Part shown: one piece after another, positions 48,601-63,600 of the stretch | Layout: each line of letters starts with the position of its first letter | Position numbering within the stretch: the first letter of the stretch is position 1 | Assembly (NCBI RefSeq): GCF_902652985.1 | Contig: NC_047023.1 | Coordinates: 7,192,001 to 7,256,000 of the forward strand | From: Pecten maximus | Taxonomy: Eukaryota | DNA length: 64,000 bases | Direction of reading: 5' to 3' | Position numbers: made by a program

Positions 48601-51600
48601 TCTATGGAATATCAAGCAGACATTTTAATATTATTGTAGATAAACTCTTCGGGATAACGCGTTAATCTGCTCAGATTTACAGTAACTAAATTTAAACTGA
48701 AAGATGCTAATATATTTTGTGTATTTTGTATAATCCTTTGAGATTGCAGGTGATAGTCACTGCTGGTAGACTTTTGTCCCCGGGGTTTACACTAACCCGC
48801 ATGCCATCTGGAAATACCTTTGAATACTAGCACGGTTCAGAATATACAGCCATGTGTTTGACGTTCAATTAAGATCGAATTCGGCGACTATTTCCTCTCT
48901 CTAACTAGATATTGGTGTTTTTGTCGACCTATTTAAGTTCTCTGTGTCGCCTTCTATGTATCACCAATTTAAGCCCTGAAGATTGCATACGAGTCCCTAG
49001 AAGGACGAAACAGCTGTATAATACAGTTAAATTCTTTTAAGCCCTTCTGCATCTAACTCTAGATTTAAATCTACATAATACCAGGATTGTAGATATACAA
49101 GTCGGTGAAAACCATGGGAATGTTTCGTGGTCGATATCATATCTCATTTGGAAATAGTGTATTCCCTTGTGCGATATGAAATCATGCGTATCCGATGATA
49201 GAGGATATGCCTGGTGGTTTCCTTGTCACCACCATCACTCTCATTTTAAGGATGTCATTTTGACCTATAGATTGGTACGGCGTCGTCAAAAAAAACATCT
49301 TGGCCCAATTGTTCAAAAGGTGATTAGCTTAATCACTTGATTAGTGAAAATTTCACTTCTCATTTGTTGAAAAACCTGAGTGTATCGTTTTAAAATTATG
49401 CCAGTTGGAACAGAACTAAGAATTACAGAATTTCATAAAGTTTTGTCAAGTAAGTTCTGCCAGAAGTTATTATACCGGGATTGAAAAAAAATGTTGTTAA
49501 AATGTGATTAGCCTAATCATCTTTTGAAAATCTGGGTCCTGGTTTTATTCTCATGAAATCCTTTTCCATAGCTATATATAGATCACCATTCAAATTGATA
49601 GTTTTCCGTATGTAGTGTGCCCTTTTTCAATAAGACAATTAAACCTTCTTGCAGATCAACTTACCAATCCAAAAACCAGTTCGTGAATATCAAAGCGAAA
49701 TAAGAATACATGCTAGTTTCACAGTTCTTTTATCAAAATAAGCATTTGACAGCTTTACAAAAGAACCACAAACAACAGCTTGAAGTCGATTCATATTTAA
49801 CATAAAAGTTGATGATATGAGTAAATATCACATAATGCATAACTTATATCACCGGTTCTCACGACATTTTAGTTGATGTTTTTTTTTTGTAATATTACAT
49901 ACATTATACGTTAATGTGTCATTGATATCAATCGTAAATTCTTCAAGATCCGGTAACACTTTCCTTTATGGTTTTTTTTTTTCTTATTTTGTATCTTCCG
50001 TTGTCTTCTGTTTTTTATGACCCGCATGACCCAAGTATATGACTCCTAGTGTGTTTTGATAACACAGCCCGAAATGTCTCCAGTTTATAACTTCGTCTGG
50101 TGTGTTTTTATAAAACAACCCGAAATGTCCCCAGTATTTGACTCATTCTGTTGTGTTTTGATAACACGACCCGAAATGTCCCCAGTATGTAACTCCTTCT
50201 GGTGTGTTCTGATAACACAACCCGAAATGTCCCAAGTATATGACTTCGGCTGGTGTGTTTTTATAACACGAGCCGAAATGTCCTAGTATATGACTTCTTC
50301 TGGATGACCCGACATGACCCCAGTATATAATTCCATTCAGTAGTAAGTATAGTTCGTCTCCGGTAGTCTGGTCCGGATACTGCTGAACCGTGTCGGGTTG
50401 GTTCCGGATTTGTCCTCCCAGATCTCCGATGATCGTCGACTCCTATCGTAACCCGAATTAGAATATCCCCTCTTGTTATTGTTAATACACAACACACAGC
50501 CGAGGATCCCGAGTACCAGTAAGGTCAGAATGACCAGCCACACGATAAAACCTATTATGGTGTTTCCACTGACCAGTCCGGAGCTGTATTGACACTCATT
50601 CTGCCTCTGTGACACCGCTACAAGACAAAACAACACAAGTTACTTATTACATAATACTCAATAAACACTGACCTCCATAAGTTCATAGTGACTTTATCTG
50701 GCAACGTCAAATACATCCAACACCATATCTGACGAGTTTACAGAAATAGAAATACTTGTATTAAGTTATTTTGTTAGATTTGATTTTTGATTAGACAACT
50801 TGACCTTCACCTTGACCTCTACACCACGACCGTAACATCTGGTCTGTTGCCGCCTTGTTTAATTCTGAACCACTTTGATTCATCATGTCAAGACAAAATG
50901 TAAAACGATTCAAAATGTGACCTTGACCTTTAGTCAGCTGACCATCTGTTTAATTCTGACCAACTTTGCGTTATATTGTCATATCAAATGTTCATGGGAT
51001 GTTCAGTAGAAAGATACCAAATATGATCTTGATTTCTGACCCATTGACTTTGACATAAACACACCAGTGAAATTTGAAAAAAAAAATCTGCCATGTACTT
51101 CTCAGGAAATAATATCAAAAACTTCAACTGTCTAAATCCTAGATGGTCACCTGTCGGCCATTTTGTTTCTAGATCAGACTCAAAATCAAAATGACTCGAC
51201 CAGGGATCAAAGAGGAATCTACTAGTGAAGTCTGAGAAATATCATATCCGCATTTCACAAGAAATTGCGATCGAAAACATTAATTATCATAATCGGTCAG
51301 ACATCTTTCCGGATCAGACTCACAATCAAATGTGCACAATTAGGGACCAAAGGGAACCCAAATATGTCCAGTGCTTCTCGGGAAATAGCGACAGCAAGGA
51401 TTGTTTGTGGACGGACGGAGGGACAGACGAAGGACGACAGACGGACAGATGGACGAACGGACCACGGACGAAGAACGATTTGAACAGCCCACCATCTGAG
51501 GATTATGGCTAATAAAGATAAACTTTTGTTTTCAAATGATTAAAGGGTTATAACGTGTAATGGAGTAGGTATCCGTGTGTAGATTATACGTACCTCCAGT

Positions 51601-60600: not shown

Positions 60601-63600
60601 ATTCGAATTGGTGATATCACCTATTCGTTTCATTAAGTGATATCATCTATTCATTTCATTAAGTGATATCATCTATTCGAATGAGTGATATCACCTATTC
60701 AAATGAAACGAATAGGTGATATCACTTTAAAAAGTTCTTAAGTGATATCACCAAATGGGAATAATATCTCATTTTTGCAGTAGTCTAAGGGAGGTAACTC
60801 TCAATTGTTGTAGGTTGGCGTCAGAACAAATGTTGAAAGAAATACTGCTAAATTACAGGATGACATGTCAGTGACATTCTAAACCCACCATATTGATCTG
60901 ATTCTGTACCTAGACCACTCACAATCATTGAAGTATTCCTTACAATAGTTTAGAATTTACTGATTATATAAAGGGCAAAGCTTAAGGAGTGTTCATTTAA
61001 AAATGGCTTAGTTGAAACCGTTTCATTTCTAACCTTGTTTACATCGTTTATTCCAATTATCACGATTTCCGTGAGTAAATGTAGAATAAAGAAGAAAAAA
61101 ATCGCACCACGCATTTTCAAAAGATGCAGGTTCATTGAAATCTATGGAAAATGTCATGGTCGACATGGTGATCCCAGTGGGAAGGTTTCTATCGCGGTAA
61201 TTGCTTCTTTATCGGACTTGGTTCCGTAGTCACTACCCTTGTCCTTGATTTCCTCGAGCATTAACAATTCTAGATTTGACAAAAAAAATAGATTTCTATT
61301 CTCTAATTGGCTCACCACGAATTCGTTTGATGAACGATGAGCATTGAAGGATACTTACCTGTAGTAGGAGTAGTTAACTGGGAATTCCTGAAGCAGAATG
61401 GCACATGTGGGAATCACAAGCCCTGTATTGTGTTCGTGCCTCTACCAATATATGCACATTACCCAAGTTATATGTGATTAAATGCATCTCAACTGCCTTA
61501 CTCCGACGCAAAGCGGCTCTCCAAATTTCGATTTCCAACTCCTCCGACACACAGTGGAATTCTTTGTGTGAATTATCTCGCGGAAATCGTTACAGCCCAC
61601 CTAACAAGAAATCAACAGCCATCGAGGAAGGCTTTACTGTCCTTTAGATAATGTCATATTTTACCTGTGGACCAATAAGGCCCGTTGTCCCCCACAACGC
61701 CTTTCTGACCTCTGGATCCCTGTAGTCCTCTCTCGCCTTTCAATCCGGTCTGGCCCTGCTCCCCGATAAATCCACTCAGATCATCTTCTGCATAAAATGT
61801 GACCATAGAGTGACAGAGAAGTTTCTTTTTAATGAAAACAATTGAATATAATATCGACAGCCGTCTCTCTGTACTACTTACCTACACAAGAGTATCCGTT
61901 ACTCTGAAGAGTAAATCCTTGTCGACAGGAACAAACGAAACTTGTACTTGTGTCAGTACAGTTATGGCTGCAGTAGTTATTTCCTGTATTCGCACAAGTG
62001 CGTTGAATTGGTACTGAAAATGAAACCAACATTAGGAATTGATGTTTTACATTATAAACGAGATAATACAAGTAAAAACAAGAATCCTACGCAAGTTGGA
62101 TCATTACGAAGAAATAGACATATTTTTCACTTCAAGAAATAATGTTAAAAGTAACCAAGACCACACTCACTTAAATATACTCGAAATTCAGCAATACAGA
62201 GCACATACTTTTGATAAATGAGCACGTCAAGAAGTTTGAACTTAATTGGCCCAAGAGAACTGCAGTTATTGCATGGAAACAAATTCTATCTATAGTAACA
62301 GTGACCTTAACCTTTGGACTAGAAAAAAAAACGATCCCATGCAAGCGCTTGTAAGGAAAAACTGTATAAAAATTGAGTTTGATGGCCCCAAAGGAACTTG
62401 CGTTATCACAAGAAACAAATTTTGTATTTTTAGTAACAGTGACCTTGAACTTTGATCTGTGGACCTGAAAAGCAATCCTAAGCGAGCACTTTTAGTAAGA
62501 AAGATCTGCGTGCAGTTTGGTCGGCCCAAGGTTAGTTGGGTTATCGCACGGACCGCGGCCGACGCCGACAGAGTGATACCTATATGTCGCCTACTTTTTG
62601 CAGTCGACAGAATGAGGTCTCGTTATGGAGTTTTGTGGAGAAAATTATATATTTCTAAACGGCGATGTGCTGAACGAATTATACTAATATCTCAAATATG
62701 TTGAAGTGTTGTTGTCTGGTATCGCAAATAAAATCTAATAACATGATTATATAAAGCAAAGTAAACCTGGCAAGCTGCATCATCACCAACAAAATAACTT
62801 CGGATGGTATGTGTCAGGGGGTGACATTACGTCCAGTTATGTTAGCCAAAAATCTTCGTCAGTATTACACAGATAATTCCATATGTATAATTGAATTTCT
62901 AATATTTTTGCAATAAATTGCATTCATTTAATATTGCAATATAGACAGTCCTAAATTCGACCAAAGCCAGTTGTTGGACTTCAAGTTTATCATTTAAGTA
63001 GAAGTTATAAAATTGGGTCAGGTCCGTCCAAAATTCTAAAACATTTCAGAATTTTAGATTTTTGACCACCCAAAATATGTTGATAGTTATTTTTTTAGGT
63101 TTTTGATTAAAACTAAATGAAATATCAAATATCCACAATCGTTTTGATTTTTTAATTATTTGGATTTTTGGATGTTCAGACCGTTGCAGTTCAAATTTCC
63201 AAAATCTCACAACAATCGCGTTGATCTGAAGCACCTGAGTGACCATGTGATTCGGAAAAGCGAAACCGAAAGTAAAGCATGTGACCCATATTTCACATTA
63301 TCTCGGCATTAGATCCGTACGTGGATTTTGTTAGTTTATGATAGAATAATGAAAATAAAGTTGTTCAGATGTGGCCAAGATGTTCTCCAGATGAGAGACA
63401 GACCCCCAAATGAAAGTCAGCCTCTTTAACAATTAAGGGACATTTTGCCTCTTACAGAACACGACATTTTTAGATATCTTTTAATTAAAAATTACATTTT
63501 CCCTTGAAAAACCAAATGCAAGCAATGATAGGAACTTGGTTTAAAACGTTCTGTTTGTCAGATATACACTGCACAATATGTCATAATATGCAGTAAAATA

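What the first reader, a model, noticed from the sequence alone, without database searches (positions are those of the whole stretch)
50337..62013. Type I membrane protein combining a collagen helix with EGF domains (EGF-COL-EGFx3-TM-tail)
Seen: eight exons with GT-AG boundaries (one junction is phase-inconsistent) give EGF, about 59 Pro-poor Gly-X-Y triplets, cbEGF, EGF, an EGF-like module with five Cys, a C-terminal TM helix and a ~50-aa tail with several Tyr. Established: vertebrate membrane collagens (XIII, XVII, XXIII, XXV, EDA, MARCO/SR-A) are type II with an N-terminal TM, and CCBE1 (EGF + collagen) is secreted. Inference: this may be a lineage-specific trimeric receptor or adhesion molecule. 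The Cys in NECQY of the last exon may complete the five-Cys module.
Basis: partly seen in the sequence, partly recalled or inferred. Interest (0 to 1): 0.65.

Follow-up and report, generated by a model that had tools for sequence, protein, structure and literature searches.

The report
Scallop type I membrane collagen gene
This is the 3' two-thirds of a real king scallop gene for a membrane-anchored protein with a collagen stalk and EGF modules, from a small uncharacterised family, and in this assembly one extra base breaks its reading frame.

Summary
The eight minus-strand exons are real. All have AG/GT borders, and 6 of 8 pass Pfam cut-offs as EGF, collagen x3, cbEGF and EGF. They match two RefSeq Pecten maximus models at 100%.

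The window holds only part of the gene LOC117334298. The signal peptide, a ~170-aa beta-sandwich domain and one more EGF lie beyond base 64000.

The "phase-inconsistent junction" is one extra base near the 3' end of exon B. Without it the last codons read GPQ, exon B ends in phase 0, and the sequence becomes collinear with intact relatives of 670 and 654 aa. RefSeq therefore splits the gene into a frameshifted X1 (406 aa) and an N-terminally truncated X2 (327 aa).

A profile of the C-terminal module found 5 proteins among 1.84 billion representatives. Two are divergent full-architecture members.

The type I topology, opposite to known membrane collagens, is supported. Trimerisation and receptor function remain inference. 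The NECQY cysteine is invariant, but the fifth cysteine is scallop-only, so the last module looks like a truncated cbEGF plus stalk cysteines.

Verdict: a new variant of a known kind, of moderate interest.

The parts
61882..62013 (-). Exon A: EGF module (second EGF of the full protein), phase 1-1, 132 nt
   Evidence: Pfam FXa_inhibition 7.2e-10 and cEGF 4.4e-07. 100% identical to P0004 residues 230-273. AG/GT borders.
61665..61787 (-). Exon B: linker plus the first 11 Gly-X-Y triplets, 123 nt (one base too many)
   Evidence: Pfam Collagen 2.6e-07. 100% identical to P0004 residues 274-315. The equivalent stretch of P0002 is 41 aa, which fits 122 nt with entry in phase 1 and exit in phase 0 (my count).
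61674..61677 (-). Approximate site of the single extra base (TATT, between the GPY codons and the hidden GPQ codons)
   Evidence: The assembled frame reads GDNGPYWST. Bases 61673..61665 read GPQ one frame over, matching P0002 GPT-GPQ|GST and P0003 GPI-GQQ|GAT.
57661..57913 (-). Exon C: 28 Gly-X-Y triplets, 253 nt, needs phase 0 at its 5' end. An in-frame alternative acceptor AG lies at 57896-57895 (the exon would then start at 57894).
   Evidence: Pfam Collagen 1.7e-18. RefSeq X1 reads it in the +1 frame at 100% identity (P0004 315-399). RefSeq X2 starts at the internal Met at 57829.
57334..57510 (-). Exon D: 19 Gly-X-Y triplets and the end of the helix, phase 1-1, 177 nt
   Evidence: Pfam Collagen 1.8e-11. 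The C/D and D/E junctions are identical in P0001.
56147..56263 (-). Exon E: calcium-binding EGF (DVDEC...), phase 1-1
   Evidence: Pfam EGF_CA 5.8e-09. The nearest solved modules are ADGRE5 and fibrillin cbEGFs.
55896..56018 (-). Exon F: EGF of the LDLR/factor X type, phase 1-1
   Evidence: Pfam FXa_inhibition 3.5e-11. The nearest solved modules are LRP4 and LDLR EGFs.
52031..55914 (.). Minisatellite filling intron F/G. Its unit is a copy of the last codons of exon F plus the splice donor.
   Evidence: TRF reports periods of 33 and 45 nt and about 90 copies. There are 72 copies of the exon-end/donor motif, with spacings of 45 nt (37 times) and 33 nt (17 times).
51594..51710 (-). Exon G: truncated cbEGF (DQNEC..., Cys C1-C4) plus a scallop-specific fifth Cys, phase 1-1
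   Evidence: Pfam matches only the first two thirds of EGF_CA (3-29 of 43) and FXa_inhibition (1-21 of 36). C1-C4 are invariant in 4 of 4 members. The fifth Cys is in 2 of 4, and also in P0001.
50592..50594 (-). Juxtamembrane Cys codon (NECQY)
   Evidence: Invariant in 4 of 4 aligned family members (P0002 C590).
50487..50558 (-). Transmembrane helix IIGFIVWLVILTLLVLGILGCVLC
   Evidence: Best 19-aa hydropathy window scores 3.07. The TM segment is 54-67% identical to the divergent members, against 34-35% overall.
50337..50486 (-). Cytoplasmic tail of 49-50 aa ending RLPETNYTYY, plus the stop codon
   Evidence: 9 K+R, 5 Tyr and 13 S+T. Invariant Y, R, R, L, P, Y and a C-terminal Y across 4 members.

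Best explanation
**What it is.** The region is the 3' part (8 of the coding exons) of Pecten maximus gene LOC117334298.

**Architecture.** The full protein, seen intact in relatives, has this order:
- a signal peptide
- a ~170-aa all-beta N-terminal domain of no known family
- two EGFs (scallops only)
- one uninterrupted collagen helix of 56-59 Gly-X-Y triplets
- cbEGF, EGF and a truncated cbEGF
- a short stalk with an invariant Cys
- a highly conserved TM helix
- a ~50-aa basic, Tyr-rich tail ending RLP(E/D)x(N/H)Y..Y

It is therefore a type I, C-terminally anchored collagenous membrane protein. This is the opposite orientation to all described membrane collagens.

**The frameshift.** In this assembly one extra base near the end of exon B shifts the frame. 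RefSeq therefore reports only a truncated frameshifted X1 and a signal-less X2. The downstream exons are as conserved as the upstream ones, so the shift is either an assembly or polishing error or a recent, possibly heterozygous, null allele.

**Inferred mechanism (not shown).**
- Three chains form a triple-helical stalk of about 50 nm.
- The stalk is registered near the membrane by the EGF and stalk-Cys region and the TM helices.
- It is stabilised by Y-position Thr and Lys rather than hydroxyproline.
- It holds three N-terminal beta-sandwich heads away from the cell to bind an extracellular ligand.
- The conserved Tyr-bearing tail couples binding to uptake or signalling, as class A scavenger receptors and membrane collectins do in the reverse orientation.
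For: **Exons and gene**
- Exon borders and phases. Exon-by-exon Pfam.
- RefSeq P0001 (X2) and P0004 (X1) match at 100% with the same junctions. X1 reads exon C in the +1 frame.
- P0004 residues 1-229 find nothing in the window beyond weak paralogous EGF hits.

**Frameshift**
- Bases 61673..61665 read GPQ. The assembled frame reads GPYWST.
- Removing one base gives collinearity with P0002 and P0003 and the phase 0 that exon C needs.
- Identity to relatives is 61-90% upstream of the shift and 60-90% downstream.

**Family**
- The C-terminal profile found 5 proteins at E<=0.001 among 1,835,955,588.
- P0005 and P0006 share the N-domain, the collagen, three EGFs, the TM helix and the tail motif.
- Helix length is conserved at 58, 58, 56 and 57 triplets. 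Pro in Y is 1-6 and Thr in Y is 13-17.
- The window has Thr in 14 of 57 Y positions and 4 KGE/KGD motifs.

**N-domain**
- The AF2 model is all-beta, with pLDDT 71.9 and pTM 0.71.

**Literature**
- Known TM collagens and collagen-like TM proteins are type II (PMC7848082, passages).
- Glycosylated Thr stabilises a Pro-poor annelid collagen (PMC11766948, passage).
Against: - The only P. maximus sequence available has a broken frame, so no full-length protein is shown for this species.
- No expression, localisation or binding data were seen.
- The signal peptide and TM helix were judged by inspection and hydropathy only. No SignalP or DeepTMHMM was available.
- Very few Y-position Pro residues mean that the helix could be marginally stable, or could serve only as a spacer.
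- The full-length AF2 monomer model is poor (mean pLDDT 40.4). It gives no support for any particular fold of the stalk.
- The N-domain has no significant PDB neighbour (0 matches at E<=0.001), so a ligand-binding role is a guess.
Confidence: 0.75

Rival explanations
1. The frameshift is real and fixed or common. In P. maximus the locus would make only a secreted, truncated product (signal peptide, N-domain, two EGFs, 11 triplets and a junk tail, as in RefSeq X1). The collagen-EGF-TM part would be a decaying remnant.
For: - The assembly was Illumina-polished three times (PMC7191990, passages), so a residual indel is not expected everywhere.
- RefSeq chose the frameshifted model.
Against: - Exons C-H have no stop codons.
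- They keep 28+19 perfect triplets and all EGF cysteines.
- They are as conserved as the upstream exons: 60-90% against 61-90%.
- Polishing applied only homozygous edits, in an animal with 1.71% heterozygosity. A heterozygous or unpolished indel could therefore survive.
Confidence: 0.15
2. The allele is rescued by splicing. Exon B as assembled (ending in phase 1) would join the alternative acceptor at 57896-57895, so that exon C starts at 57894. This gives an in-frame protein with one Gly-to-Trp interruption (WST) and two fewer triplets.
For: - The alternative exon C is 234 nt, which makes all eight exons phase 1-1.
- Its acceptor context, caag|GTGTGA, is the same as that of exon D.
Against: - The stretch skipped (GQT GLQ) is in-frame Gly-X-Y and aligns with GAT GLQ of P0003 and GST GVQ of P0002.
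- The polypyrimidine tract sits before the upstream AG.
- RefSeq X1 uses the upstream AG.
Confidence: 0.05
3. The protein is not a receptor. It would be a matrix or adhesion component: a membrane-tethered precursor whose collagenous ectodomain is shed, as with type II membrane collagens, or a cell-matrix anchor without signalling.
For: - Ectodomains of MACITs, ectodysplasin and colmedins are shed (PMC7848082, passages).
- EGF and collagen modules are typical matrix modules.
Against: - The TM helix is the best-conserved segment in divergent members (54-67%).
- The tail keeps invariant Tyr, Arg and LP positions up to the C-terminus.
- Both points argue that the membrane-embedded and cytoplasmic parts have a function of their own.
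- No furin-type site was looked for.
Confidence: 0.2

Closest known systems
Mizuhopecten yessoensis 'fibrillin-2-like' / UniRef 'Collagen alpha-5(VI) chain' (P0002, 670 aa) and the unnamed P0003 (654 aa)
   Same: Collinear orthologue-level relatives. They have the same modules in the same order, are 60-90% identical exon by exon, and have the same tail ending NYTYY.
   Different: Their ORFs are intact, while the window has one extra base in exon B. Both carry only automatic names and are uncharacterised.
Type II membrane collagens and collagen-like membrane proteins (collagens XIII, XVII, XXIII, XXV; ectodysplasin A; colmedins/gliomedin; class A scavenger receptors)
   Same: All are single-pass membrane proteins with a collagenous ectodomain. 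The scavenger receptors are the best functional analogy: a trimeric stalk that presents distal binding domains.
   Different: - All of them are type II, with an N-terminal anchor (PMC7848082, passages; PMC4678570, abstract in the listing). Here the anchor is C-terminal and a signal peptide is N-terminal.
- They have no EGF modules.
- No sequence relation beyond Gly-X-Y was tested.
[quoted passage not shown]
   Same: It combines EGF/cbEGF modules with collagen repeats in one chain.
   Different: - CCBE1 is secreted, with N-terminal EGFs and a C-terminal collagen-like domain (abstracts of PMC8864227 and PMC5501841 in the listing).
- It has no TM helix, no EGF triplet after the helix and no N-terminal beta-sandwich domain.
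- No sequence comparison was made.
Fibrillin-2 (the RefSeq label of X2 and of P0002)
   Same: It has cbEGF modules. Exon E matches fibrillin cbEGFs at E 7e-11.
   Different: Pfam finds no TB/8-Cys domain and no long cbEGF array. The protein has collagen and a TM helix, which fibrillins lack. The label reflects generic cbEGF likeness only.
EGF modules of LDLR/LRP4, coagulation factors, and ADGRE5 (CD97)/EMR2
   Same: These are the nearest solved modules to exon F (LRP4, 3.2e-15) and exon E (ADGRE5, 2.9e-12).
   Different: The likeness is at module level only. There are no LDL-A, YWTD, Gla, protease or 7TM parts.

Membership tests
Collagen triple-helix repeat proteins (Pfam PF01391) | Gly-X-Y repeats scoring above the curated cut-off (27.2 bits) | tested here: met
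   Exons B, C and D score 30.7, 66.5 and 44.1 bits. There are 57 triplets in runs.
Collagen triple-helix repeat proteins (Pfam PF01391) | Three chains form a triple helix | not testable with these tools
It needs CD, protease resistance and SEC-MALS on a recombinant ectodomain.
Type II membrane collagens / collagen-like type II membrane proteins (MACITs, collagen XVII, EDA, colmedins, SR-A/MARCO) | N-terminal cytoplasmic domain and signal-anchor, with a C-terminal ectodomain | tested here: not met
   The TM helix is in the last exon and is followed by a basic tail. P0004, P0002, P0005 and P0006 begin with short hydrophobic signal-like N-termini (by inspection).
CCBE1 | Secreted, no TM helix; EGF modules N-terminal and collagen repeats C-terminal | tested here: not met
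   A TM helix is present, and three EGF modules follow the helix. Orthology by sequence was not tested.
Fibrillins | TB (8-Cys) domains and long tandem cbEGF arrays, with no collagen and no TM helix | tested here: not met
   Pfam on the exons and on P0001-P0004 lists no TB domain. Collagen is present.
Unnamed family defined here (P0002, P0003, P0005, P0006) | One collagen helix of 56-58 triplets followed by cbEGF, EGF and a truncated cbEGF (C1-C4) | tested here: met
   The window has 59 triplets once the frameshift is allowed for.
Unnamed family defined here (P0002, P0003, P0005, P0006) | Invariant juxtamembrane Cys, an IGFIVW-type TM helix with an invariant Cys, and a C-terminal RLP(E/D)x(N/H)Y..Y | tested here: met
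   Exon H carries all of them.
Unnamed family defined here (P0002, P0003, P0005, P0006) | N-terminal signal peptide and a homologous all-beta domain | tested here: met
   It is not in the window. It is present in RefSeq X1 of the same locus: the P0004 N-domain stretch (22-189) is 71%, 64%, 27% and 20% identical to the other four members.
Unnamed family defined here (P0002, P0003, P0005, P0006) | One continuous ORF from the signal peptide to the tail | tested here: not met
   A one-base frameshift lies at the end of exon B in this assembly.

The most novel reading that the evidence does not exclude
These proteins are the first class of type I (C-terminally anchored) collagenous cell-surface receptors.
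- They would be obligate trimers.
- The Pro-poor, Thr-rich helix would be nucleated from the membrane-proximal EGF, Cys and TM end.
- The helix would display three novel beta-sandwich heads about 50 nm from the cell.
- They would act as pattern-recognition or scavenger-type receptors of bivalve cells, with a new Tyr-based C-terminal signalling or sorting motif.

This would be a convergent mirror image of SR-A/MARCO.
Probability: 0.35. Interest if true: 0.6.

Novelty: new variant of a known kind. Interest (0 to 1): 0.45.

Why it matters
- Every membrane collagen and collagen-like membrane protein described so far is type II. A conserved type I family would show that the collagen stalk has been combined with a membrane anchor in both orientations. 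It would also give a natural system in which to ask where helix nucleation starts when the anchor is C-terminal.
- For bivalve biology, it adds a candidate membrane-bound recognition or adhesion molecule with an unknown head domain.
- For annotation, one extra base has split a single scallop gene into two misleading RefSeq isoforms ("uncharacterized" X1 and "fibrillin-2-like" X2).

Tried and rejected
- **Trimer model.** The job was 3 copies of P0002 residues 265-500 with alignment A3. It was returned NOT FOLDED by a likeness filter. There is no verdict, and I did not hand it in again.
- **Full-length AF2 monomer of P0002**. Mean pLDDT is 40.4, too poor to decide how the stalk cysteines pair. 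Only the TM helix reaches pLDDT 71-82.
- **PDB fold search with the N-domain model**. There were 0 matches at E<=0.001. Weak jelly-roll neighbours (PHR, TNF-ligand, CBM6, phage tail) have TM-scores mostly below 0.5. I rejected them as an assignment.
- **Atlas.** The N-domain search gave unnamed eukaryote clusters at 0.88-0.89, which are leads only. P0005 gave nothing usable.
- **Word-based search with the P0002 N-domain** found only P0002 and P0004 among 718 candidates.
- **Exon C starting at 57894.** I first favoured this and then rejected it as the main reading; see the rival explanations.
- **Tail motifs.** I considered NPxY-type and PDZ-ligand readings. NPTRF is not NPxY, and position -2 is not conserved (T in scallops, N or H in P0005 and P0006).
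- **Literature.** Searches found no paper on such a protein in the held library. PMC9290575 (listing only) concerns EGF-ZP shell proteins, not this family.
- **Joined exon model.** I did not build or search a joined model of the window's exons.
- **Not reachable.** The metagenome and viral contig collections and paper supplements were closed. The supplements of PMC7191990 might hold expression or annotation data for this locus.

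
Full report
**Observation**

The gene lies on the minus strand. Reading the sequence and tabulating it gives eight exons:

| Exon | Coordinates | Note |
|---|---|---|
| A | 62013..61882 | |
| B | 61787..61665 | |
| C | 57913..57661 | |
| D | 57510..57334 | |
| E | 56263..56147 | |
| F | 56018..55896 | |
| G | 51710..51594 | |
| H | 50617..50337 | stop TGA at 50339-50337 |

- 8 of 8 acceptors are AG and 7 of 7 donors are GT.
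- A six-frame scan of the whole window found Gly-X-Y runs of 5 or more triplets, and six-Cys EGF patterns, only in these exons.
- I searched exon by exon. Pfam gives the following:
  - A: FXa_inhibition/cEGF (39.3 bits)
  - B, C, D: Collagen (30.7, 66.5, 44.1 bits)
  - E: EGF_CA (36.5 bits)
  - F: FXa_inhibition (43.5 bits)
  - G: only the first two thirds of a cbEGF (16.3 bits, below cut-off)
  - H: nothing above cut-off
- Exon H holds a strongly hydrophobic 19-24-residue segment. After it comes a 50-aa tail with 9 K+R and 5 Tyr.
- The helix is Pro-poor: 11 Pro in 182 residues, with 3 of 57 Y positions Pro. It is Thr-rich in Y (14 of 57).
- The window has no N.
The continuous proteins used below are database records that the searches returned.

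**Identity**

- Exon H alone, searched against longer proteins, found 3 proteins among 88 candidates:
  - P0001, "fibrillin-2-like isoform X2 [Pecten maximus]" (327 aa, 99% identical by that search's BLASTP)
  - P0002, from Mizuhopecten yessoensis (670 aa)
  - P0003, unnamed (654 aa, on a 2,543-nt contig, so the ORF there has no introns)
- Exon A alone found P0004, [quoted passage not shown] (406 aa; 1 of 1 candidates).
- tblastn back onto the window shows 100% identity with my junctions. P0001 covers part of exon C through exon H. P0004 covers exons A and B, and then exon C in the +1 frame.
- The window is therefore king scallop, not human.
- P0004 residues 1-229 (signal peptide, N-terminal domain, first EGF) have no counterpart in the window. 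The gene runs off the window beyond base 64000.

**The phase problem**

- Seven exons are phase 1-1.
- Exon B (123 nt) also ends in phase 1 as assembled, but the Gly-X-Y frame of exon C needs phase 0.
- The assembled frame ends ...GDN GPY WST. The last nine bases, read one frame over, give GPQ.
- P0002 reads GPT GPQ|GST GVQ and P0003 reads GPI GQQ|GAT GLQ at this place.
- The equivalent stretch of P0002 is 41 aa. That fits a 122-nt exon entering in phase 1 and leaving in phase 0.
- One extra base, around 61674-61677, therefore explains three things at once: the "Gly to Trp" oddity, the phase clash and the RefSeq models.
- X1 uses the same donor and the AG at 57915-57914, reads exon C out of frame and stops in exon D. 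X2 is merely the downstream ORF from an internal Met and has no signal peptide.
- An in-frame alternative acceptor (exon C would start at 57894) exists. It would skip aligned, in-frame Gly-X-Y codons, and I rank it low.

**Error or real?**

- Identity to P0002 and P0003 is 61-90% upstream of the shift and 60-90% downstream.
- Exons C-H keep perfect triplets and all EGF cysteines. There is therefore no sign of decay.
- The assembly came from PacBio CLR reads (wtdbg2, Arrow). Freebayes polishing applied only homozygous edits, in an animal with 1.71% heterozygosity (PMC7191990, passages).
- A residual or heterozygous indel is plausible. I cannot tell which without reads.

**Family**

- I built a profile of the last module, TM helix and tail from parts of P0002 and P0003 plus window exon H (alignment A2). 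Searched against 1,835,955,588 representatives, it found 5 proteins at E<=0.001: P0002, P0001, P0005 (606 aa), P0006 (574 aa) and P0007 (235 aa).
- P0005 and P0006 are 34-35% identical to P0002. They have the following:
  - a signal-like N-terminus
  - a homologous N-domain (the N-domain alignment gives 27% and 20% identity to P0004)
  - collagen
  - cbEGF, EGF and a truncated cbEGF
  - a TM helix
  - a tail ending RLPEVNYY or RLPDVHYY
  - no EGF pair before the helix
- P0007 has EGFs and the truncated cbEGF-TM cassette, but no collagen.
- Helix length is conserved at 58, 58, 56 (30+26) and 57 triplets. Y-position Pro is 1-6 and Y-position Thr is 13-17.
- The TM helix is the best-conserved part in the distant members (54-67%).
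- Cysteines: C1-C4 of the last module, the juxtamembrane Cys (NECQY) and one TM Cys are present in 4 of 4 members. The "fifth" Cys of the module and a second TM Cys are present in 2 of 4, the scallop-like pair.
The more likely layout is a truncated cbEGF plus one or two stalk cysteines, which are candidates for interchain bonds.

**N-domain**

- It has no Pfam family.
- AF2 on a five-sequence alignment gives an all-beta model (pLDDT 71.9, pTM 0.71, 10 strands).
- Foldseek against the PDB gives 0 matches at E<=0.001 and only weak jelly-roll neighbours.
- The Atlas gives unnamed eukaryote clusters.
- I call it a beta-sandwich of unknown family.

**Mechanism**

Shown:
- the domain order
- the C-terminal TM helix
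- conservation of helix length, TM helix and tail

Inferred from established knowledge of collagenous proteins:
- three chains form a stalk of about 50 nm (about 170 residues at 0.29 nm each)
- with few Y-position Pro residues, stability would rest on KGE/KGD pairs (4 in the window) and on Y-position Thr, possibly glycosylated as in Riftia cuticle collagen (PMC11766948, passage)
- the EGF triplet, the stalk Cys and the TM helices would set the chain register at the C-terminal, membrane-proximal end
- the N-terminal heads would bind ligand
- the conserved tail would link binding to sorting or signalling

The closest working analogy is the class A scavenger receptors and membrane collectins, with the orientation reversed. 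The trimer test gave no verdict (see Tried and rejected).

**Comparison and novelty**

- Passages of PMC7848082 state that MACITs, ectodysplasin A, colmedins and class A scavenger receptors are all type II.
- CCBE1 is secreted, with N-terminal EGFs and a C-terminal collagen-like domain (abstracts in the listing).
- The "fibrillin-2-like" label rests on generic cbEGF likeness. No TB domain is present.
- Four literature searches found no description of such a protein in the held library. Supplements were closed.
- I rate it a new variant of a known kind: a type I collagenous membrane protein family. It is already present in databases as unnamed or mislabelled models, and nothing is known experimentally.

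**Surroundings**

- Intron F/G is filled by a 3.9-kb minisatellite copied from the end of exon F plus its donor.
- Other introns and the 3' flank carry further tandem arrays.
- Downstream of the gene lie an apparently intact LINE ORF, satellite arrays and an LTR-element fragment.

Noticed in passing
window 52031-55914 (intron F/G, reaching into exon F's last 19 nt): A 3.9-kb minisatellite of 33- and 45-nt units. The unit is a copy of exon F's last codons (DRHSCIG) plus the GT donor. It holds 72 copies of the donor-bearing motif. Both unit lengths are multiples of 3, and the exon F frame stays open for about 345 codons into the array. Use of a downstream copy as the donor would insert Cys-containing 11- or 15-aa units. 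This was not tested.
   Followed up: partly
window 50026-50303, 56369-56870, 60077-60704: More tandem arrays lie inside the gene:
- 51 nt x5.5 directly 3' of the stop codon
- 44 nt x11.4 in intron D/E
- a 22/70-nt array with GATATC palindromes in intron B/C

The first AATAAA after the stop codon is 788 nt downstream, at 49549.
   Followed up: no
window 44070-47888 (+): An uninterrupted 1,272-codon ORF with endonuclease (Exo_endo_phos), reverse transcriptase (RVT_1) and zf-RVT domains. It is a LINE-type retrotransposon ORF2 that looks intact.
   Followed up: partly
window 3584-4291 (+): An ORF with RT_RNaseH domains (2.1e-32). It is a fragment of an LTR-type retroelement.
   Followed up: no
window 31860-33306 and 39336-43517: Two arrays of one 63-nt satellite (23 and 66 copies). 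By eye their consensus units are reverse complements of each other. This fits the opposite GC skews of +0.22 and -0.31 seen in these stretches.
   Followed up: no
P0007 (235 aa): A collagen-less protein shares the truncated cbEGF, stalk and TM cassette (E 2.5e-05). That cassette may therefore be a shuffled unit of its own.
   Followed up: partly
RefSeq models P0001 and P0004 of this locus: The two records matching this locus carry unrelated names ("fibrillin-2-like isoform X2" and "uncharacterized protein LOC117334298 isoform X1"), and neither is full length. Both oddities trace to the one-base frameshift.
   Followed up: yes
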